Source of the DNA: Acinetobacter phage 5W
DNA: 43,032 nt
Sequence record: MT349887.1
Direction: 5' to 3' (one strand)
The notes beneath the pieces were generated by a model. That model had not been told where the DNA came from, ran no database searches, and worked only from the letters and a program-made list of their open reading frames with translations. Positions 11,710 to 34,232 of the stretch are shown here, one piece after another (position 1 is the first letter of the stretch; every line of letters starts with the position of its first letter). Position numbers and translations under genes: made by a program.

Positions 11710-12420
11710 GTGAAGTTTAATAAATTTTTTATATTAATATTTTTATCGATGTTTTTGTTATTATTAGCTAACTTTTTTAATCCTGATATATCAAGTTGGG
11801 TAAAAAATAAGCTTAATATTTCTACAAATTCAGAATTAAATCCATATTATAAAAAAATGGTAGTTGTTCATCAAAGAATGGATGGAAGCATTAGAGAAGG
11901 TTCCATATTCTTTTTAGGGGACAGTATAACTCAATCTTTAAACGTAAATTCAGTAACCAATCAGGGAATTAATTATGGGATCGGCGGGGATACAACTTTT
12001 GGTTTATTGAATCGCATAAAGTATTATAATTCACTTAATAAAGCTGATAAAATTTTAGTAGCTATAGGGATTAATGATTTTATTTTTAACAGAACCAGTA
12101 AAGAAATCATAGAAAATTATGAAAAAATATTTGAATTACTACCTAAAGACAAAAAAGTTTTTATAAACTCAGTGTTGCCAGTTACATACCAATATACAGA
12201 GAATTCCGATAAAATTACTATTAAACAAATTGTAGAATTGAATCATGAATTGAAAAAATTTTGTAGTCTAAAACCAAATTGTGAATTCATTAATTCTTAT
12301 GGATTATTTGCAGATTCGGCAGGATTTTTAAAAAAATCCTATGATACTGGAGATGGAATACATCTTAATACTGAGGGATATAATCTCTTGATTAAGATAT
12401 TGAAAGTTAAAATTAATTGA
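11710..12420 (+). CDS. Secreted SGNH/GDSL-family hydrolase (lipase/acyl-esterase-like) moron
   Basis: GTG start with RBS 'aaggaga'; N-terminal signal/TM 'FILIFLSMFLLLLANFF'; blocks 'FFLGDSITQ' (GDS), 'GIND', 'DGIHLN' (DxxH); very AT-rich versus flanking tail genes. Confidence 0.8.
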   Translation: MKFNKFFILIFLSMFLLLLANFFNPDISSWVKNKLNISTNSELNPYYKKMVVVHQRMDGSIREGSIFFLGDSITQSLNVNSVTNQGINYGIGGDTTFGLLNRIKYYNSLNKADKILVAIGINDFIFNRTSKEIIENYEKIFELLPKDKKVFINSVLPVTYQYTENSDKITIKQIVELNHELKKFCSLKPNCEFINSYGLFADSAGFLKKSYDTGDGIHLNTEGYNLLIKILKVKIN

Positions 12421-12488: not shown

Positions 12489-15400
12489 ATGAACAACAAT
12501 CGAGTGGAAGTACATGTCAGTGCAAAAACTTCTGAGCTCAAGGAAGGGATGCAAGATGCTGAAAAAATAGTTTCAGATGCTTCCAAGAAAATTGAAAGCA
12601 CTGGAAAGAGTATCGATTTTAAACTTGATCTTTCAAATCTAAAGTCAGAGTTAAATGGTTTTGCAACAAGCCTTTCGGATAAATTTAAGACCGTAGGCAA
12701 TGATATTAAGAGTTCGCTGACTAATGGCCTATCTTTAGTCAGGGGCGGTTTTTTTGTTGGTATTGGCCAAGAGATTGCTAGAAGTGCAGCGGAAGCGGTT
12801 GCAGCAATTCCTGATCTTGTATCTGCAGTGGGTAAGGCTTCAAAAGAGTTAGAGATTCAAGCCCGATTAGCAAACTCGAATACTTTAGAATTTCAAGAAT
12901 GGGCATTTGCTGCCAAAAAAGTAAACGTGGAGCAGGACAAGCTATCGGACATCATGAAAGATGTAAACGATAAGTTTGGTGACTTCATGCAAACTGGTGG
13001 TGGTGAGATGGCCGATTTCTTTGAGAAGATCGCGCCAAAAGTCGGTGTCACTGCCCAACAATTTAAAGGCTTATCTGGTCCGCAAATCCTAGAAAAGTAC
13101 TACCAGACTTTGCAAAAAGCCAATGTGTCACAGGCTGAAATGACTTTCTATATGGAAGCCATTGCGAACGATGCAACATTATTAGCTCCATTATTGGATA
13201 ACAACGGTCAAAAATTAAAAGAGTACGCTAAACAGGCTCATGATTTAGGCGTAATCATGAGTGAAGATGCCATAGCTGCTACCAAAGAATTTAATACGTC
13301 CCTTGAGACTGTCCAAACAACACTTCAAGGAGTATTAACCCGTATTGCAGCACAAGCAGCTCCATCCCTTACTGAATTAGCTAATCAATTTTTAACTTTT
13401 GCGGTTGATTCCAAGGATGCCATTGATGATTCAATTAAATCGATTATTGGCATTTTTGAAAGCTTGTTTAGTATTCTAAGTGAGCAGTTCACAACGATTG
13501 GAGCAATCTGGAGTGACTTGACTGGAAGCATTGGAGACGATGCAAATAAACAGATTGGCTTTATGGATGCTATATCTGTAGTACTACGAGCATTAGGTGT
13601 TGTAGTTACCGGCTTTCAGGTAGGCGTTCAATCTGCTTTTGCAATCATTCGTGCCGTTGTAGTCACGGTATGCCAAGCTTTAATCATTGCTTTTAATGGC
13701 CTTATGGCTGGCTTTGATATGGTACGAAGTACTATTCAGTATGGTCTGGATGTATTACAGGTAAAGTTTCAAACATTTGGTAGCGTTGTAAATAACATCC
13801 TCCATTTTAACTTCTCAGGTGCAAAATCGGCATGGGAGGGTGGTTTATCTCAGCTTGGTAGTATTACTGATCGTTATACAAACCAAATGAAAGGACGAAT
13901 GGCTGACCTGAAAAACTCTTGGAATGCAGGAGCCACTACAGCAGCCAATTCACTTGTCACGGCTGGTAAAAGAATTCTTGAAGTTACAACTGCTGGCAAT
14001 CAGAAGATTACCAACTATGTATTTAAGGATCCTACTAAACCTTTTGAGCCACCTAAACCACCTAAGCTAGGCCTAGGTACTGCACCACCAAATACTAAAC
14101 TTGGTATTGGTACTGGGGAGAAGGACGAAAAAGGCGGCTCTAAATCGTCTGCAAAATCTAAAGCAGAACAAGAGGCTAAGGAACGGCAGCGACAAGCTGA
14201 GCAGGCAGCTAAAGCACTTGCTGATATTCGGTATAAATATGCATCCGAAGAAAAGAAAGTGGCTCTAGATCTTCAAAAGGCGTTAGATGAGATTGAAAAA
14301 TCCAAGATGACTGCAGATGAAAAAGCTGCTGCGAAAGTCAAAGCCGAAAAGGATGCATCCGACAAGATCATTGCTATTCGTTTAAAAGAGTTTGAGGAAT
14401 ACAAAAAAGCTCGTGAAGAACAAATAGACAATTATCAACAGCAAGCACAGCGCCTTTATGAAATTGAAGCGGCACGGATCCAAGCTGAATTTGATGCCAA
14501 GAAAATTTCAAATGTCCGTAAAGTTCAGTTGGAAAAACAGCTTGAAGATCAATTACGTGAAATTAAACGGCAAGGTCTTTTAGAGCGTTTAGCTTTGGAA
14601 AATGAGCAGACCAACATTACAGGCAAACAAGGTAATCAAAACCAAATCACAAACAACATTTCTGATTTAGAGACAGACCAGAAAGTTGCTGACACTAAGT
14701 CTATGGGCTTAATCAGTGATGCGGAAATGAAAGACTTTGAGGCCAAGTTCGGTGGCTTTACTTCTCGACTTTCTAACCTTTGGGATCAGGGTATTCAGTC
14801 TCTTATGAATGGTACCCTCACTTGGAGTAACGCAACTAAAGCAGTGCTTGCTGACATGGGGCAATTTGCCTTGCAAACAGCTACTAAAGAGCTACAAGGC
14901 TGGTTAAGAATCCAAGCTATTAAATTGGCTCGTAAACTTGGATTTGTCGGTGCTGAAACAGCCGCTGAAGCTTCTGGCCAAGCTGCTCAAACAGGGGCAA
15001 CCATTGCAGGTGAAGCAACACGTACCAGTGTTACTGCAGCTGGTGGTTTAGCTCGTTTAGGCTTAAAAGCTGCTGAAGCTATCAAAGGCATCATGATGTC
15101 TGCATGGGAAGCAATGGCCGGAGCTTTTAAAGCGATGGTCGCAATTCCATATGTTGGTCCAATTCTTGCCGTTGGTGCAGGTGCGGCTGCTTTTGGTTTA
15201 GTGGCTGGACTTGCTGGAAAGATTAAATCTGCTCGTGGCGGTTACGACATTCCTGCCGGTGTAAACCCTATGACGCAATTGCACGAAGAAGAAATGGTAT
15301 TGCCGAAACAGCATGCCAATACCATTCGTGCCCTAGGTAAATCTATGGCCAATGGTGGTCTGGGAGGTGGTGGCGAGAACACTGCACAGCCCGTTATTTT

Positions 15401-15512
15401 CAGTCCTACCATTCAGGCTTGGGATTCAAAGGATGTTCGACGCTTCTTCAAGAAGCATGGTAGTGAATTAGCAGACAGTCTTAAGGGCTATAACCGTAAT
15501 TTTGGTAAATAA
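12489..15512 (+). CDS. Tail tape measure protein
   Basis: 1007 aa, long alpha-helical/coiled-coil with Ala/Gly-rich hydrophobic C-terminal region; position after chaperone pair. Confidence 0.85.
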   Translation: MNNNRVEVHVSAKTSELKEGMQDAEKIVSDASKKIESTGKSIDFKLDLSNLKSELNGFATSLSDKFKTVGNDIKSSLTNGLSLVRGGFFVGIGQEIARSAAEAVAAIPDLVSAVGKASKELEIQARLANSNTLEFQEWAFAAKKVNVEQDKLSDIMKDVNDKFGDFMQTGGGEMADFFEKIAPKVGVTAQQFKGLSGPQILEKYYQTLQKANVSQAEMTFYMEAIANDATLLAPLLDNNGQKLKEYAKQAHDLGVIMSEDAIAATKEFNTSLETVQTTLQGVLTRIAAQAAPSLTELANQFLTFAVDSKDAIDDSIKSIIGIFESLFSILSEQFTTIGAIWSDLTGSIGDDANKQIGFMDAISVVLRALGVVVTGFQVGVQSAFAIIRAVVVTVCQALIIAFNGLMAGFDMVRSTIQYGLDVLQVKFQTFGSVVNNILHFNFSGAKSAWEGGLSQLGSITDRYTNQMKGRMADLKNSWNAGATTAANSLVTAGKRILEVTTAGNQKITNYVFKDPTKPFEPPKPPKLGLGTAPPNTKLGIGTGEKDEKGGSKSSAKSKAEQEAKERQRQAEQAAKALADIRYKYASEEKKVALDLQKALDEIEKSKMTADEKAAAKVKAEKDASDKIIAIRLKEFEEYKKAREEQIDNYQQQAQRLYEIEAARIQAEFDAKKISNVRKVQLEKQLEDQLREIKRQGLLERLALENEQTNITGKQGNQNQITNNISDLETDQKVADTKSMGLISDAEMKDFEAKFGGFTSRLSNLWDQGIQSLMNGTLTWSNATKAVLADMGQFALQTATKELQGWLRIQAIKLARKLGFVGAETAAEASGQAAQTGATIAGEATRTSVTAAGGLARLGLKAAEAIKGIMMSAWEAMAGAFKAMVAIPYVGPILAVGAGAAAFGLVAGLAGKIKSARGGYDIPAGVNPMTQLHEEEMVLPKQHANTIRALGKSMANGGLGGGGENTAQPVIFSPTIQAWDSKDVRRFFKKHGSELADSLKGYNRNFGK

Positions 15513-30354: not shown

Positions 30355-30465
30355 TATCTGGTGAGATTTATTAAACCAAAGGTATAAAATAAAAGCAAGC
30401 ATAAATTAAACCATAGGTGAAAATAATTTATGATTAGGTTTAAATATGCTTTAATAGACAAAAGA
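30355..30465 (-). promoter_or_regulatory. Putative left operator/promoter (OL) carrying duplicated operator segment
   Basis: 'aaccataggtgaaaataattt' (30409-30429) and 'attaggtttaaata' (30433-30446) are near-identical to segments in the cI/cro intergenic region; heptamer TTAAACC/GGTTTAA recurs. Confidence 0.45.
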
Positions 30466-30490
30466 AAACCCACACGGGGTGGTGGGTTCG
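30466..30490 (-). terminator. Putative terminator downstream of the RM gene (acccac/gtgggt stem, T-run on - strand)
   Basis: GC-rich hairpin with A-run on + strand upstream side (tttcttt on - strand RNA) 10-30 nt after the RM gene stop. Confidence 0.4.
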
Positions 30491-30499
30491 AAGGGGGGA

Positions 30500-32767
30500 T
30501 TAGTTGTAATTTTGAGGAAGTTCCCATAATGCTTCTGTCTTTAGACGCAATTTTTTTTGATTTTCCTTGAGACTATTCTCAATTTCCTTTATTAGTTTAT
30601 GTTGTTTTACTATTTGATCTTTAACCTCTTCAGGAGGATTCGGGATCTCAATATTCAAAAACATTTCATCAGGAATACTGCGTCGTCTCTCTACACTGCC
30701 TTGCATTTTACTTTTGTATATTTTTCTTAGAGAATTAGATCTCAAAATCAAATCCAAATATTCTACATTAACTTCTCGTTTTAATCTAAAGATTTTGTAT
30801 GCTGGGCTTACGGCAGCAGCATCGTAATATTTTTGAAATCCTAGAACACCTTCATCTATAGGGAACCCCATTACAAGTTCATTTTTAAAAACCTTTTTAT
30901 ACCCAGAAATATCAGAACTTGCGACTCGTTTTTTAAATTTCTCATGCTGATCAATTAAGCCATGTTCCATAGTGATACTCATAATAGGTATATTTGTATC
31001 CTCTCCCACTTTGACTTTGCCAGACAAGGATAGGAGTTCTTTTAGTTTTATAGTTGGGAATTTTGATTTTATATGTGAATTACTATAGTGAGCATAATTA
31101 TAAATATAATCATTGCTTCTGATTAATTCTGGATTAACTTTTAAGAAACCTAATTCATTATAATATTTATCAAAGTCGCTCTTATTTAAATCAGCAAAAT
31201 CTAAATTTTTTAAATCATTTTCGTCAATTTTTCTACGGAAAGAATCTAAACTTAGGCCATCATTTGTCACATTGTAGTAAAAAACGTCAGAATTTGTTCT
31301 ACCATTATGACAGTTGGTAAAGTAGAGTATATTGGTTTTAACTTTTGCATATGGCAGAAAAACTTCTTTTGGAAGTGAAACTACTGCTTTTAGTTGGGCG
31401 TTTTCAAATAAATACTTCCTTACTGGAGCTAAAGCGGCTTTAAAAAGAAAGCCTTCAGGTACTACTAATGCCATTCGCCCTCCTTTTTTTGTTGCTTTAA
31501 AGCAATGTAGAACACATACTCCATCACCATCGTTTTTAGCTAACTTATTCTCATATAAGTGAGAATAAGAAGTTTTTTGAGAAAATGGCATGTTGGTTAT
31601 AACCACATCATATTCAGATTCAATAGGGTTTTGAAGTGTGTCTATCTGGCAAATTCCACTATGCCCATCCCCATGCAGAATCATATTCATTTTTGCGAGT
31701 TTTGCATTTGAGGTAATTTCTCTTCCAAAAATAGTATTATGTTTAAGCTTGATTTCTTCACTACTATTGTTTGCAATTAAAGTGTTATCTTTTATATGAT
31801 CAAATGCCTCTGTTAAAAAACCACCTGTCCCACAAAAAGGGTCATAGATCTTTTCACCATATTTAGGGTTGACTAAGTTAACAATGGTTTTAGTTATGTG
31901 ACGTGGAGTAAAATATTCTCCTAAGTCATTATTAGTTGCTGTAGCTTGCTGTAAGAAATACTCAAAAGCATCTCCTTTAATATCGGTATCTATTGATGAG
32001 AGTTTTAACTTATCCAACTCTTTGATCATCTCTTTAACAGCAACAGGGTTGGTTAGCTGTAAATTTGTAAAAACAGAAGCACCATATTGTCTATCAATAT
32101 CTTGTAGTATGTTATTAGTTGTATTAATTAGCAAATCATTATCGAGACTTTTGAGAGAATTCCAAATACCTGTATTAGCATTCTCTGTATACAATTTTAA
32201 AAAAAGAATGTTTGCAAATTCTGAAAGCCTTTCTATACCAGCTCTTAAACCTTCACCTCTTAGTGAGTTATTTAACTTCTTGAAAACATTAATTAACTCT
32301 TTGCGAGAGACTAAAATTTCTTTAGGTGTAATATAAATACCATTTGTTTCCTGCAATATGAACTCTTTAGCTTCATTTACTCTTATTAATTCATTAACCT
32401 CATTTTCATCAATAAATAATGGTTTTTGGGTATACAAATGCCGTGTTTCGCAGAAACCATTATTCATTGCAAATATCAAAGGTGCATCAAGCATTTCAGC
32501 ATATTCGGTTGCCTGATCCAGTGCTTTTGTTAAGCTTTTTCCACCTGATTTCGTTTCAATTACACCGATTGGCCGCTTATTTTGTGAATCGAAAAGAACA
32601 TAATCGGGTCTTTTTTTACTTTTCTTGAGAAACTCATTATTAACAATTCTTAAGATATCTGATTCAAAAAAGACATTTTTGTTTGGATCTTGAATGTCCA
32701 AGATCCAGCCCTTGTTAATCAAATTATTGTTAACAATAAAACGTGTATCTTGCTCAATATTAGACAT
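30500..32767 (-). CDS. Single-chain restriction-modification enzyme: HsdR-N-type PD-(D/E)xK nuclease + HsdM-like N6-adenine MTase + HsdS-like target recognition domain (Type IIG/IIB-like)
   Basis: N-term 'RPDYVLFD...IGVIETK' (PD...ExK); 'LGEYFTPRHITKTIVNLV' + 'DPFCGTGGFL' (motif I) + 'TNMPFS' (motif IV); C-term '...IEIPNPPEEVKDQIVKQHKLIKEIENSL' resembles conserved HsdS region. Track start 32782 is TTG; ATG at 32767 has RBS. Very AT-rich. Confidence 0.8.
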   Translation of the reverse strand: MSNIEQDTRFIVNNNLINKGWILDIQDPNKNVFFESDILRIVNNEFLKKSKKRPDYVLFDSQNKRPIGVIETKSGGKSLTKALDQATEYAEMLDAPLIFAMNNGFCETRHLYTQKPLFIDENEVNELIRVNEAKEFILQETNGIYITPKEILVSRKELINVFKKLNNSLRGEGLRAGIERLSEFANILFLKLYTENANTGIWNSLKSLDNDLLINTTNNILQDIDRQYGASVFTNLQLTNPVAVKEMIKELDKLKLSSIDTDIKGDAFEYFLQQATATNNDLGEYFTPRHITKTIVNLVNPKYGEKIYDPFCGTGGFLTEAFDHIKDNTLIANNSSEEIKLKHNTIFGREITSNAKLAKMNMILHGDGHSGICQIDTLQNPIESEYDVVITNMPFSQKTSYSHLYENKLAKNDGDGVCVLHCFKATKKGGRMALVVPEGFLFKAALAPVRKYLFENAQLKAVVSLPKEVFLPYAKVKTNILYFTNCHNGRTNSDVFYYNVTNDGLSLDSFRRKIDENDLKNLDFADLNKSDFDKYYNELGFLKVNPELIRSNDYIYNYAHYSNSHIKSKFPTIKLKELLSLSGKVKVGEDTNIPIMSITMEHGLIDQHEKFKKRVASSDISGYKKVFKNELVMGFPIDEGVLGFQKYYDAAAVSPAYKIFRLKREVNVEYLDLILRSNSLRKIYKSKMQGSVERRRSIPDEMFLNIEIPNPPEEVKDQIVKQHKLIKEIENSLKENQKKLRLKTEALWELPQNYN

Positions 32768-32899
32768 ATTGCATAATCCCAATATCTACTATAAAAACTA
32801 TTGGCAATCTACACATTACACACTAAAACATCAATAAATATTACTATCTAATAAGTGATATACCCCACATTTAAAAGACTGTGTCGGGTTCACAGTTTA

Positions 32900-33121
32900 T
32901 TAATCTTTTGTGTTATTAATTTTCTGGCCTAGCTTTCCTTCTTTTACCAACTGCACGACCTGCTCATTAGTAAGCACAGGAATAAAGACTTTGTCGCCAA
33001 TATCTTTAGAAAGAATCTTTACTTCTTCGGCTGTTAGCACCAAAGCTTCACCATGTTTCGCAGCATCATTGATGCGAGCAATAATCTGATTGATTGGTAG
33101 TTTTGCGTTATCCAATTCCAT
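32900..33121 (-). CDS. Hypothetical 73-aa protein between repressor and RM gene
   Basis: Compact ORF co-oriented with cI and the RM gene; no recognisable motif. Confidence 0.45.
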   Translation of the reverse strand: MELDNAKLPINQIIARINDAAKHGEALVLTAEEVKILSKDIGDKVFIPVLTNEQVVQLVKEGKLGQKINNTKD

Positions 33122-33130
33122 TCTCCTTTT

Positions 33131-33877
33131 TTAACCTGCACGCCAAAATTGGCGACCCATAACTTTAAAATTCAATCCATTTTGCTCCGTGACTTCACGA
33201 TCTCTGTATTTAGGATTTAGGCTGTGCAGAATCAGTTTCCCGCCTTCTTCCTTGAAAATCTGCTTAATCATGCCTTCACCCTCAAAGTAAACAGCATAAA
33301 TTTGACCATCGATAATGTCGGTTTGGGATATATCAATGCCAACCAAATCCCCATCATCAATCTTGTCCGCCATGCTGTCGCCTTTAGCCTTGATGATGCG
33401 CATGCAATCAGGATGAACATTTTTTTGTTTAAAAAAACTAGGTGGGAATGGCTGTTTTCCATTGATCACATCAAAGTGAAACTCTATAGACTCTCCTGTG
33501 CCACAAGAAAAACTTGCCTCTACCACATCAATCCAGATAAATCCATCATCCCCACCATACTCAACTACTGACGGGCTTTGAATATCATTCACATCAAATG
33601 ATGATTCATCTTTCTTGGATAGACCGTGCTTATCCATAAATTCTTGCATGTTGAAGTTGGTTAAATTTTGTTTTTTCTTCCCGTTTAGAAGCCATCCGGC
33701 ATCAACTTCTAAAAGTTCGGCCAACTTATCCAAAGTCTCTTTGCCAATCTGTCCTTTTTTCCATTTAGAAGGCGCTTGAGGAGTCAGGCCAATCATTGTG
33801 GCAGCTTTAGACCATGATAATTTCTTTGCTTTCAGTGCTTCCTGAATGCGCTCAACCATTGTGCTCATAACTTTCAT
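33131..33877 (-). CDS. cI: CI-like prophage repressor (HTH + S24 LexA-type peptidase domain)
   Basis: N-terminal HTH ('LSWSKAATMIGLTPQAPSKWKKGQ'); C-terminal 'KAKGDSMADKI' (Ser) and 'GMIKQIF' (Lys) S24 dyad; track ORF extends to 33934 but the first 19 aa look like spurious extension. Confidence 0.8.
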   Translation of the reverse strand: MKVMSTMVERIQEALKAKKLSWSKAATMIGLTPQAPSKWKKGQIGKETLDKLAELLEVDAGWLLNGKKKQNLTNFNMQEFMDKHGLSKKDESSFDVNDIQSPSVVEYGGDDGFIWIDVVEASFSCGTGESIEFHFDVINGKQPFPPSFFKQKNVHPDCMRIIKAKGDSMADKIDDGDLVGIDISQTDIIDGQIYAVYFEGEGMIKQIFKEEGGKLILHSLNPKYRDREVTEQNGLNFKVMGRQFWRAG

Positions 33878-34001
33878 CGCGTGAAACCTTTGGTTAAATT
33901 TTCGTATAAAAAATATAAAATTGTAAGCAACCATAGGTTGAAAATAATTTTAACTCATGGTTTAATAAAAATATTAATTAGGTTTAAATAAGGTTTAAGA
34001 T
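33878..34001. promoter_or_regulatory. Divergent cI/cro promoter-operator region (OR)
   Basis: Intergenic between divergent repressor and cro-like genes; GGTTTAA heptamer x3 (33959, 33982, 33993) and 'aaccataggttgaaaataattt' (33929-33950) shared with OL. Confidence 0.5.
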
Positions 34002-34232
34002 ATGAATCCTATTCAACAAGCCATTGATGCTGTTGGTGGGCGAACCAATGCAGCGTCATTACTTGGGATATCCTACGTTGCTGTAAGAAAGATGGCAGAG
34101 AAAGGTGTATTGCCACGTACTGATTACACAGGTGAAACCAACTACGCACAGATTCTTGCTGAGCACAGTAACGGGAAAGTGACTCAAGAATGGCTACTCG
34201 ATAAAGCAAATCCAAAACATTTAGCGGCATAA
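34002..34232 (+). CDS. cro: Cro-like HTH regulator (YdaS/Cro family)
   Basis: 76 aa; 'AVGGRTNAASLLGISYVAVRKMAEKG' HTH; divergent from cI. Confidence 0.6.
   Translation: MNPIQQAIDAVGGRTNAASLLGISYVAVRKMAEKGVLPRTDYTGETNYAQILAEHSNGKVTQEWLLDKANPKHLAA

What the first reader, a model, noticed from the sequence alone, without database searches (positions are those of the whole stretch)
30500..32782. Single-polypeptide R-M-S restriction enzyme occupying the rex-like slot of the immunity region
Domain order in this 760-aa protein, N to C: an HsdR-N-type PD-(D/E)xK nuclease motif (PDYVLFD...VIETK), a complete gamma-class N6-adenine MTase (TPRHI..., DPFCGTGGFL, NMPF), and one HsdS-like TRD with the conserved HsdS C-terminal helix (IEIPNPPEEVKDQIV...). 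It lies between the cI-like repressor and the duplicated OL operator, co-oriented with cI. This is the position where lambda carries rexAB, so it is probably expressed in the lysogen as a prophage-borne defence. It is strongly AT-rich and has its own terminator. A single-TRD fused enzyme this small is unusual among Type IIB/IIG relatives such as AloI/TstI/MmeI, and its recognition site and cut mode are unknown.
Basis: partly seen in the sequence, partly recalled or inferred. Interest (0 to 1): 0.7.

Follow-up and report, generated by a model that had tools for sequence, protein, structure and literature searches.

The report
Prophage-borne single-chain restriction-modification enzyme
A common Acinetobacter baumannii temperate phage carries, next to its repressor gene, one intact gene predicted to both cut and methylate DNA; this is an untested member of a well-known, very widespread enzyme class and is not an unusual design.

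Summary
The ORF is real and intact. It is probably 755 aa from ATG 32767, not 760 aa from TTG 32782. The N-to-C domain order is confirmed:
- a PD-x15-ExK nuclease;
- a gamma-class N6-adenine methyltransferase;
- one HsdS-type TRD ending in a heptad-repeat helix.

The nuclease and methyltransferase catalytic residues are invariant in 64 relatives.

The window is an A. baumannii Vieuvirus-like temperate phage, 100% identical to PhabP_R1. The gene lies between cI plus a 73-aa ORF and the O_L operators. It is the most AT-rich stretch of the window.

Related phages have this slot empty or filled with unrelated cargo, so it is a rex-like cargo slot. The terminator belongs to the slot frame, not to the gene.

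The claim of unusualness fails:
- HaeIV already has the R~M~one-TRD design.
- Relatives occur in at least 577 species genomes.
- The identical protein is on at least 1000 contigs and in 33 phage records.

Best model: a solitary HaeIV-like homodimeric Type IIG/IIB enzyme that recognises an interrupted palindrome, is expressed from the prophage and restricts unmodified incoming DNA. Activity, recognition site and expression are untested. I rate it a new member of a known kind, of modest interest.

The parts
30500..32767 (-). R-M-S gene, 755 aa from the ATG. The TTG-extended ORF runs to 32782.
   Evidence: ORF list. GenBank CDS in PQ382036. It is intact, as a single piece at 99.9% identity, in 33 phage records.
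32333..32767 (-). N-terminal PD-(D/E)xK nuclease domain (aa 1-145). P54-D55 lie at 32603-32608, E71 at 32555-32557 and K73 at 32549-32551.
   Evidence: Pfam HSDR_N. It aligns to the HsdR nuclease of 3h1t across the D...ExK motif. P54, D55, E71 and K73 are invariant in 64 relatives.
31913..32332 (-). Helical HsdM-type N-terminal domain (aa 146-285).
   Evidence: AF2 model helices 149-277. It aligns with StySJI and EcoKI M subunits from about residue 161-170.
31088..31912 (-). Gamma-class N6-adenine MTase core (aa 286-560). Motif I DPFCGTGG lies at 31820-31843 and motif IV NMPF at 31583-31594.
   Evidence: Pfam N6_Mtase, E 5e-54. PDB HsdM hits, E 1e-34. Both motifs are invariant.
30653..31072 (-). 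Single HsdS-type target recognition domain (aa 566-705).
   Evidence: PADLOC Specificity_I, E 8e-27. The top PDB matches of the TRD-only AF2 model are all HsdS halves plus the BsaXI S subunit.
30530..30631 (-). C-terminal long helix (aa 713-746) with a hydrophobic heptad: I719, I726, L733, L740, L747.
   Evidence: AF2 helix 713-746 at pLDDT above 90. The heptad is read from the sequence. HsdS conserved-region helices and their role in dimerisation are described in PMC3874165.
32768..32873 (-). Leader that travels with the gene. The best sigma-70-like match is only 8/12: TTGATG at 32829-32834 and TAGATT at 32806-32811.
   Evidence: Sequence. No consensus-grade promoter on this strand in the scan.
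32878..32896 (-). Weak hairpin after the 73-aa ORF. It forms the right edge of the cargo slot and is conserved in phages with other cargo.
   Evidence: Terminator-like on both strands. Window 32874-33114 matches TCUAN1 and Ab105-2phi at 95-97% identity.
30466..30489 (-). Intrinsic terminator of the immunity operon, forming the left edge of the cargo slot.
   Evidence: Eight-pair stem followed by a T-run. It is homologous to the hairpin that follows the small ORF in the empty-site phage qsb1. It is conserved in TCUAN1, Attikon1 and Ab105-2phi.
30372..30421 (.). O_L: two operator-like palindromes (TAAACC-N3-GGTTTA type) at 30372-30386 and 30407-30421.
   Evidence: Direct repeat D13 and inverted repeats I1/I3 pairing with O_R. 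They carry 1 and 2 mismatches. Only two other sites with 2 or fewer mismatches lie outside O_L and O_R in the window.
33883..33964 (.). O_R: three operator-like palindromes at 33883, 33927 and 33950, between cI and cro.
32900..33121 (-). Conserved 73-aa ORF of unknown function, 9 nt after cI.
   Evidence: PHROG 2719, E 7e-49, function unknown. No Pfam or PADLOC hit. It is present after the repressor in all relatives examined.
33131..33934 (-). cI-like repressor, shown as the maximal ORF. The true start probably lies further downstream (lower coordinate), e.g. ATG 33877.
   Evidence: HTH_3 + Peptidase_S24. PHROG 4 transcriptional repressor.
34002..34232 (+). Cro-like regulator, divergent from cI.
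   Evidence: Weak P22_Cro and YdaS hits. PHROG 35.

Best explanation
The gene encodes a solitary, self-sufficient Type IIG restriction-modification enzyme of the HaeIV kind (Type IIB behaviour). One chain carries a PD-x15-ExK nuclease, a gamma-class m6A methyltransferase and half of a Type I S subunit (one TRD plus one coiled-coil helix).

Inferred mechanism:
1. Two chains pair through the C-terminal helices, as truncated HsdS proteins do. The dimer therefore reads an interrupted palindrome.
2. With AdoMet it methylates one adenine in each half-site, so both strands of host and prophage DNA are protected without a companion methylase.
3. [quoted passage not shown]

The gene is cargo in a repressor-proximal slot of an A. 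baumannii temperate phage. It is probably transcribed in the lysogen by read-through from the cI operon. It would then protect lysogen and prophage against other phages and foreign DNA.

Shown here: the domains, the conserved catalytic residues, intactness, solitariness, and the position and variability of the slot.
Inferred: dimerisation, site symmetry, cut mode, expression and defence.

My confidence by part: about 0.8 that it is an active single-chain R-M enzyme, about 0.55 that it acts in the homodimer/palindrome mode, and about 0.65 that it is expressed in the lysogen as a defence.
For: Domains:
-. AF2 model at pLDDT 85.6.
- The TRD-only model (pLDDT 88.6) matches HsdS halves (1yf2, PacII S, EcoKI S, 3okg) and the BsaXI S subunit at E 4e-6 to 3e-4. 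The TRDs of monomeric enzymes (CamA, BseCI, BpuSI) score only E 0.05-0.2.

A working enzyme:
- P54, D55, E71, K73, motif I and motif IV are invariant in 64 relatives. Nuclease-domain identity in those relatives falls as low as 31%.
- The ORF is intact in 33 phage records.

Specificity module:
- TRDs are shuffled among relatives. Some have a core at 55-70% identity with a TRD at 13-25%; others have a core at 33-49% with a TRD at 57-65%.
- Relatives of about 950 aa carry two PF01420 stretches.

Solitary gene:
- No second methylase motif IV in a plausible ORF of the window.
- No hsd genes next to the Yersinia or Spirosoma homologues.

Published basis (PMC3874165):
- Single-TRD S subunits homodimerise and read palindromes.
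- HaeIV is 2 x R~gammaM~[GAY].
- Monomeric Type IIG enzymes other than the MmeI type have companion MTases.

Slot.
Precedent: a prophage single-subunit restriction system in the lysogen-expressed variable region of mycobacteriophage Panchino (PMC7542560).
Against: - No activity, methylation motif or transcript data were found for this gene in the literature searched.
- Dimerisation could not be modelled.
- The leader has no consensus-grade promoter, and a weak hairpin lies between the 73-aa ORF and the gene. Expression in the lysogen is therefore uncertain.
- The full-length model also aligns over its whole length with monomeric BpuSI, and the nuclease spacing PD-x15-ExK equals that of BpuSI (abstract of PMC3185434).
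- Pfam PF01420 does not hit the query.
- No bipartite palindrome is significantly avoided in the phage genome.
Confidence: 0.6

Rival explanations
1. It is a monomeric Type IIG enzyme of the MmeI, Eco57I or BpuSI kind. It would read a short continuous asymmetric site, methylate one strand only and cut on one side.
For: - It is a single chain with one TRD.
- Foldseek aligns the whole model with BpuSI 3s1s over 884 columns.
- The PD-x15-ExK spacing is the same as in BpuSI.
- There is a weak MmeI_Mtase hit.
- MmeI-type enzymes also have C-terminal helices and are solitary (PMC3874165).
Against: - The TRD plus helix matches HsdS halves far better than the TRDs of monomeric enzymes.
- The MmeI_Mtase score is 16.4 bits against a cut-off of 27.
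- Eco57I- and BpuSI-type enzymes need companion MTases, and none is present.
- Two-TRD forms occur in the same family.
Confidence: 0.2
2. It is effectively a methyltransferase only, as most records annotate it (N-6 DNA methylase, Type I M subunit, DarB-like). It would protect phage DNA against host restriction or act epigenetically, with an inactive or non-restricting N-terminal domain.
For: - Depositors' names.
- Phages often carry orphan methylases.
- A weak PHROG DarB-like hit, E 2e-5.
Against: - The nuclease catalytic residues are invariant across 64 relatives.
- The DarB hit covers only about 100 residues of the MTase core, and the best PHROG is a family of unknown function.
- The gene sits in the lysogenic operon upstream of O_L/P_L, not in a lytic operon.
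- The TRD shuffling is typical of restriction systems.
Confidence: 0.1
3. It is one component of a multi-gene system, such as Type I with a separate HsdR, MADS or BREX, and is inactive alone.
For: - PADLOC mad2 profile, E 1e-47 over residues 50-525.
- NCBIfam MAD2 and PglX partial hits.
- The HsdM and HsdS similarity.
Against: - The NCBIfam MAD2 score is 119 bits against a cut-off of 720, and PglX scores 35 against 500.
- There is no helicase or ATPase domain in the protein and no partner genes in the slot or beside the homologues.
- The cargo unit exchanged between phages is this gene alone.
Confidence: 0.05
4. Its main role is addiction. Post-segregational killing would stabilise the prophage, rather than the enzyme serving as anti-phage defence.
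For: From established knowledge, R-M systems can behave as selfish stabilising elements. The cassette is 99.4-100% identical across otherwise mosaic phages, which suggests recent spread.
Against: This is not exclusive of defence. A single fused chain loses both activities together on loss of the gene, which weakens the classical toxin/antitoxin asymmetry (inference). No data were found.
Confidence: 0.05

Closest known systems
HaeIV (Haemophilus aegyptius), a single-chain Type IIB/IIG enzyme
   Same: The organisation is listed as 2 x R~gammaM~[one TRD]. It is a solitary gene, thought to act as a homodimer on a symmetric bipartite site (GAY N5 RTC) and to cut on both sides (PMC3874165 and PMC4027205).
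   Different: Sequence relatedness to HaeIV could not be tested, because its sequence was not retrievable here. The recognition site, cut positions and oligomeric state of the phage enzyme are unknown. HaeIV was not described as prophage cargo in the texts read.
AloI, TstI, PpiI and CjeI, single-chain Type IIB enzymes
   Same: The R-M-S order in one chain, and Type I-like TRDs that can be swapped. Relatives of the phage enzyme with two PF01420 stretches exist.
   Different: Those enzymes have two TRDs, are about 1250 aa long and read asymmetric bipartite sites. The phage enzyme has one TRD and 755 aa.
BcgI and BsaXI, two-subunit Type IIB enzymes
   Same: An RM subunit that combines a PD-ExK nuclease with a gamma-MTase, and an HsdS-like specificity module. 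BsaXI RM (8w0p_A) and BsaXI S (8w0p_C) are both structural matches.
   Different: Their S module is a separate protein with two TRDs. Here half an S subunit is fused to the RM chain.
BpuSI and MmeI, monomeric or bimodal Type IIG enzymes
   Same: [quoted passage not shown]
   Different: Their TRDs are not HsdS-like by sequence. BpuSI has companion MTases. The MmeI_Mtase profile is not matched above its cut-off.
Type I R-M (HsdR, HsdM, HsdS)
   Same: The nuclease domain is of the HsdR N-terminal type, the MTase is HsdM-like including the N-terminal helical domain, and the TRD plus helix is half an HsdS.
   Different: There is no ATP-dependent translocase and there are no separate subunits. Cutting would therefore be at fixed positions, not distant ones.
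Lambda rexAB and the single-subunit restriction system of mycobacteriophage Panchino
   Same: Position and logic. Accessory defence cargo lies next to the repressor, is co-oriented with it, and lies upstream of the early-left control region or in the lysogen-expressed variable region.
   Different: There is no sequence or mechanistic similarity to RexA or RexB. Lysogen expression is shown for Panchino (as cited in PMC7542560) but not here.

Membership tests
Type IIG (IIC) combined restriction-methylation enzymes | N-terminal PD-(D/E)xK cleavage domain | tested here: met
   Pfam HSDR_N, E 9e-8. Alignment to the HsdR nuclease of 3h1t. P54, D55, E71 and K73 invariant.
Type IIG (IIC) combined restriction-methylation enzymes | Gamma-class N6-adenine MTase in the same chain, with motif I before motif IV | tested here: met
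   N6_Mtase, E 5e-54. DPFCGTGG at residues 309-316 precedes NMPF at 392-395, and both are invariant.
Type IIG (IIC) combined restriction-methylation enzymes | No ATP-dependent translocase domain | tested here: met
   No helicase or ATPase family appears in the Pfam, NCBIfam or PADLOC hits. The 755 aa are fully accounted for by the R, M and TRD domains.
Type IIG (IIC) combined restriction-methylation enzymes | Cleavage at a fixed distance from the site, and AdoMet-dependent methylation | not testable with these tools
   This needs biochemistry or a methylome.
HaeIV-like single-TRD homodimeric Type IIB | Exactly one HsdS-type TRD followed by one coiled-coil helix, fused to the RM chain | tested here: met
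   PADLOC Specificity_I hits cover residues 577-745 only. The TRD-only model covers half of each HsdS target (TMt about 0.3 on targets about twice its length). One helix at 713-746 with the heptad I719, I726, L733, L740, L747.
HaeIV-like single-TRD homodimeric Type IIB | Solitary gene: no companion MTase and no separate S subunit | tested here: met
   Window motif scan. Slot content. Yersinia and Spirosoma contexts.
HaeIV-like single-TRD homodimeric Type IIB | Homodimer, symmetric bipartite site, double-strand cuts on both sides | not testable with these tools
No methylome was found.
HaeIV-like single-TRD homodimeric Type IIB | Sequence homology to HaeIV itself | not tested
No Haemophilus locus is among the 80 loci kept.
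Type I R-M | Separate HsdR with an SF2 motor, and a 2R+2M+S complex | tested here: not met
   There is no motor domain and no hsdR neighbour. The EcoAI-family R equivalog scores 45.5 bits against a cut-off of 550.
MADS (MAD2 methyltransferase) | Equivalog-level match and the accompanying mad genes | tested here: not met
   NCBIfam MAD2 scores 119 bits against a cut-off of 720. No mad genes are nearby.
MmeI family | MmeI-type MTase and TRD domains | tested here: not met
   PF20473 scores 16.4 bits against a cut-off of 27.
Lambda RexAB-type exclusion | Homology to RexA or RexB | tested here: not met
   No Rex family appears in the Pfam hits or among the PADLOC hits listed (best 25 of 81). Only the map position is analogous.

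The most novel reading that the evidence does not exclude
The stretch between the repressor + 73-aa-ORF pair and O_L, framed by two conserved hairpins (32878-32896 and 30466-30489), may be a dedicated exchange slot for lysogen-expressed defence cargo in Acinetobacter Vieuvirus-like phages. The uncharacterised alternatives found there would then be new defence systems. These alternatives are the Ab105-2phi ORF15 (333 aa) + ORF14 (130-aa membrane protein) pair, the TCUAN1 315-aa protein and the Attikon1 169-aa protein; none has a Pfam or PADLOC match. The R-M-S enzyme would be one interchangeable option among them. A related possibility is that the compact 755-aa clade, whose TRD is better conserved than its catalytic core, has a cut mode not yet described.
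Probability: 0.3. Interest if true: 0.55.

Novelty: new member of a known kind. Interest (0 to 1): 0.3.

Why it matters
If it is active, it is a common, mobile, prophage-delivered barrier to phage infection, transformation and plasmid uptake in a priority pathogen. That matters for the choice of therapeutic phages, which may need propagation on a modifying host, and for genetic tractability.

Database names for it are inconsistent or misleading: N-6 DNA methylase, Type I M subunit, DarB-like, hypothetical protein. A correct label as a single-chain Type IIG/IIB R-M enzyme would improve defence-system surveys.

The slot analysis also points to uncharacterised cargo genes at the same position. 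These are cheap candidates for defence screens.

Tried and rejected
The TRD was established from PADLOC profiles and from fold instead.
- phmmer of the TRD segment against PDB sequences found nothing relevant.
- No NCBIfam equivalog reached its cut-off. MADS, BREX PglX and MmeI membership were rejected on score and context.
- The literature searches found no paper that characterises this gene, its motif or its expression (readings). The methyltransferase ORF27 induced in Ab105-2phi is not this gene, because Ab105-2phi has other cargo in the slot.
- A scan for avoided bipartite palindromes in the window was not significant. The best case was GAT N8 ATC, 4 observed against 15 expected, p 9e-4 over 155 tests. 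It gives no lead to the recognition site.
- The promoter scan found no site of 9/12 or better on the gene's strand in the leader. The best hand-read match is 8/12.
- The genome scan kept no Haemophilus locus, so homology to HaeIV is untested.
- Homodimer modelling was not possible with the tools allowed.
Full report
**Observation**

The ORF at 30500..32782 on the minus strand exists and reads 760 aa from a TTG. The start is more likely the ATG at 32767, which gives 755 aa. Three things point to this:
- a GGGA lies 9 nt upstream of the ATG;
- GenBank record PQ382036 annotates that start;
- homologues align from it, and E5 is invariant.

Residue numbers below use the ATG start unless a call is quoted.

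**Domains**

- Nuclease. Pfam gives HSDR_N at 22-96 (E 9e-8). The N-terminal 157 aa align with the nuclease domain of the Vibrio HsdR structure 3h1t across the D...ExK motif.
- Methyltransferase. Pfam gives N6_Mtase at 266-569 (E 5e-54). PDB sequence hits are Type I M subunits (E down to 6e-35) and the BsaXI RM subunit.
- TRD. Pfam PF01420 does not hit this protein. However, four PADLOC Type I specificity-subunit profiles match residues about 570-745 (best E 8e-27).
- Full-length model. An AlphaFold2 model (pLDDT 85.6, pTM 0.81) shows five parts in order: an alpha/beta domain; a helical region; a Rossmann-type core; a beta-rich domain; a 34-residue terminal helix.
- C-terminal model. A second model of the last 200 aa (pLDDT 88.6) finds, as its nine best PDB matches, Type I S subunits (1yf2, PacII S, EcoKI S, 3okg and others) and the BsaXI S subunit. 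Each match covers about half of the target. The TRDs of monomeric enzymes (CamA, BseCI, BpuSI) score only E 0.05-0.2.
- Terminal helix. It carries hydrophobic residues every seven positions: I719, I726, L733, L740 and L747 (read).

**Is it a working enzyme?**

- In an alignment of 64 relatives (43-69% overall identity), P54, D55, E71 and K73 are invariant. So are most of motif I (F311, G313, G315, G316; D309, P310, C312 and T314 in at least 90%) and N392, P394 and F395 of motif IV.
- This holds even where nuclease-domain identity falls to 31-40%.
- The spacing PD-x15-ExK equals that reported for BpuSI (abstract of PMC3185434).
- The gene is intact, as a single alignment piece at 99.9% protein identity, in 33 Acinetobacter phage records.
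- It is therefore not a pseudogene, and the nuclease is under selection.

**Source and surroundings**

- The window is 100% identical over 9 kb to Acinetobacter phage PhabP_R1 and nearly identical to vB_AbaSI_5. Relatives include B1251-type (Vieuvirus) temperate siphoviruses of A. baumannii.
- The right-hand neighbours are a 73-aa ORF (PHROG 2719, function unknown) and a cI-like repressor with HTH_3 and Peptidase_S24 domains. Both are co-oriented with the gene. A Cro-like gene lies divergent from cI.
- Operator-like palindromes of the form TAAACC-N3-GGTTTA cluster at 30372 and 30407 (O_L) and at 33883, 33927 and 33950 (O_R). Only two other sites with 2 or fewer mismatches lie outside O_L and O_R in the 43-kb window.
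- Gene GC is 0.316 (GC3 0.24) against 0.403 for the rest. No other window of the same length is lower.

**The slot**

- Phage qsb1 has the repressor and the small ORF, followed directly by a homologous terminator and O_L. It is an empty site.
- TCUAN1, Abau_Attikon1 and Ab105-2phi share both flanks but carry unrelated genes between them. The shared flanks are window 30445-30500 (including the hairpin at 30466-30489) and window 32874-33114 (including the hairpin at 32878-32896).
- Those alternative genes have no PADLOC match and no Pfam match above the curated cut-off; only two weak, sub-threshold Pfam hits (KTSC, LapA).
- The exchanged unit here is therefore the gene plus a leader of about 100 nt (about 30500-32873). 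The terminator belongs to the immunity-operon frame, not to the gene.
- The leader has no consensus-grade promoter.
- The likeliest expression route is read-through from the cI operon past a weak hairpin, as with lambda cI-rexAB. This is inference.

**How common is the design?**

- The protein search returned more than 100 full-length relatives of 730-810 aa from many phyla. It also returned forms of about 950 aa with two PF01420 stretches and one form with three.
Two candidate archaeal phyla are among them.
- The identical 755-aa protein is on at least 1000 contigs and is named 'MULTISPECIES: N-6 DNA methylase'.
- The Yersinia and Spirosoma homologues are solitary genes on mobile islands.
- TRDs are shuffled between relatives. 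Some share a core at 55-70% identity with a TRD at 13-25%. Others share a core at 33-49% with a TRD at 57-65%.

**Mechanism**

The review PMC3874165 states the following:
- Single-TRD S subunits (EcoR124I and EcoDXXI truncations, NgoAV) homodimerise through the coiled coil and read interrupted palindromes.
- HaeIV is the Type IIG equivalent, 2 x R~gammaM~[GAY], and cuts on both sides of GAY N5 RTC.
- Monomeric Type IIG enzymes such as Eco57I, BpuSI and BseRI come with companion MTases.

In this case there is one HsdS-type TRD with a heptad helix. No companion methylase is present in the phage or beside the homologues. Two-TRD siblings exist in the same family.

The best-supported model is therefore a HaeIV-like homodimer that methylates both strands of a symmetric bipartite site and cuts unmodified DNA at fixed positions. 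An MmeI-like mode remains possible, at about 0.2.

**Comparison and novelty**

- The architecture is known from HaeIV.
- The family is large and already annotated, though inconsistently.
- Prophage-borne single-subunit restriction next to immunity genes has a precedent in mycobacteriophage Panchino (PMC7542560).
- No paper characterising this Acinetobacter gene was found.
- It is a new, untested member of a known kind.

**Dead ends**

- No bipartite palindrome is significantly avoided in the window.
- AFDB50 was unavailable.
- The HaeIV sequence could not be obtained for a direct comparison.

Noticed in passing
L010:2080-3476 (Ab105-2phi); L008:1559-2936 (TCUAN1); L009:1754-2708 (Abau_Attikon1): The same repressor-proximal slot holds other cargo in these phages. 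Ab105-2phi has a 333-aa soluble protein followed by a 130-aa protein with several hydrophobic segments, a RexA/RexB-like layout. TCUAN1 has a 315-aa protein that shares one 48-aa stretch with it (E 2e-5). None has a PADLOC match or a Pfam match above cut-off.
   Followed up: partly
window 32900-33121 (-): A conserved 73-aa ORF (PHROG 2719, function unknown) always lies directly after the repressor gene. It accompanies both the 267-aa cI-like repressor and the LexA-like repressors of about 220 aa in related phages. Its role is unknown. It has no HTH, Pfam or PADLOC hit.
   Followed up: partly
window 41308-41958 (+): A 216-aa ORF lies in the most AT-rich kilobase of the window (GC 0.28), just downstream of a Q-like antiterminator at 40612-41112. 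It has no Pfam hit. It may be a second moron.
   Followed up: no
window 11710-12420 (+): A GDSL-type lipase/acylhydrolase ORF (Pfam E 6e-18) sits in an AT-rich patch of the virion module, just before the 1007-aa ORF at 12489-15512.
   Followed up: no
window 30653-31072 (TRD) compared with the relatives in alignment A1: In about half of the distant relatives the TRD is better conserved with the query (57-65%) than the nuclease and MTase core (33-49%). One specificity module therefore circulates among two divergent R-M backbones.
   Followed up: partly
window 30500-32767 (protein-level fold search): The best matches in the viral structure library are proteins of about 800-1000 aa from giant viruses of protists (Bodo saltans virus, CroV, Pyramimonas orientalis virus and others). 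They align over about 700 columns and are annotated as adenine methyltransferases or Type I M+S fusions.
   Followed up: no
window 30500-32767 (PADLOC mad2 profile): The PADLOC profile for the MADS methyltransferase MAD2 aligns from residue 50 to 525 (E 1e-47). That span includes part of the nuclease-like N-terminal domain, although the NCBIfam MAD2 equivalog is far below its cut-off.
   Followed up: no
window 33877-33934: The maximal cI ORF starts at ATG 33934, which falls inside an operator-like site (33927-33941) of the O_R cluster. In-frame ATGs at 33877, 33868 and 33859 lie downstream of the three O_R sites and are more plausible starts. The GenBank record uses yet another start.
   Followed up: no
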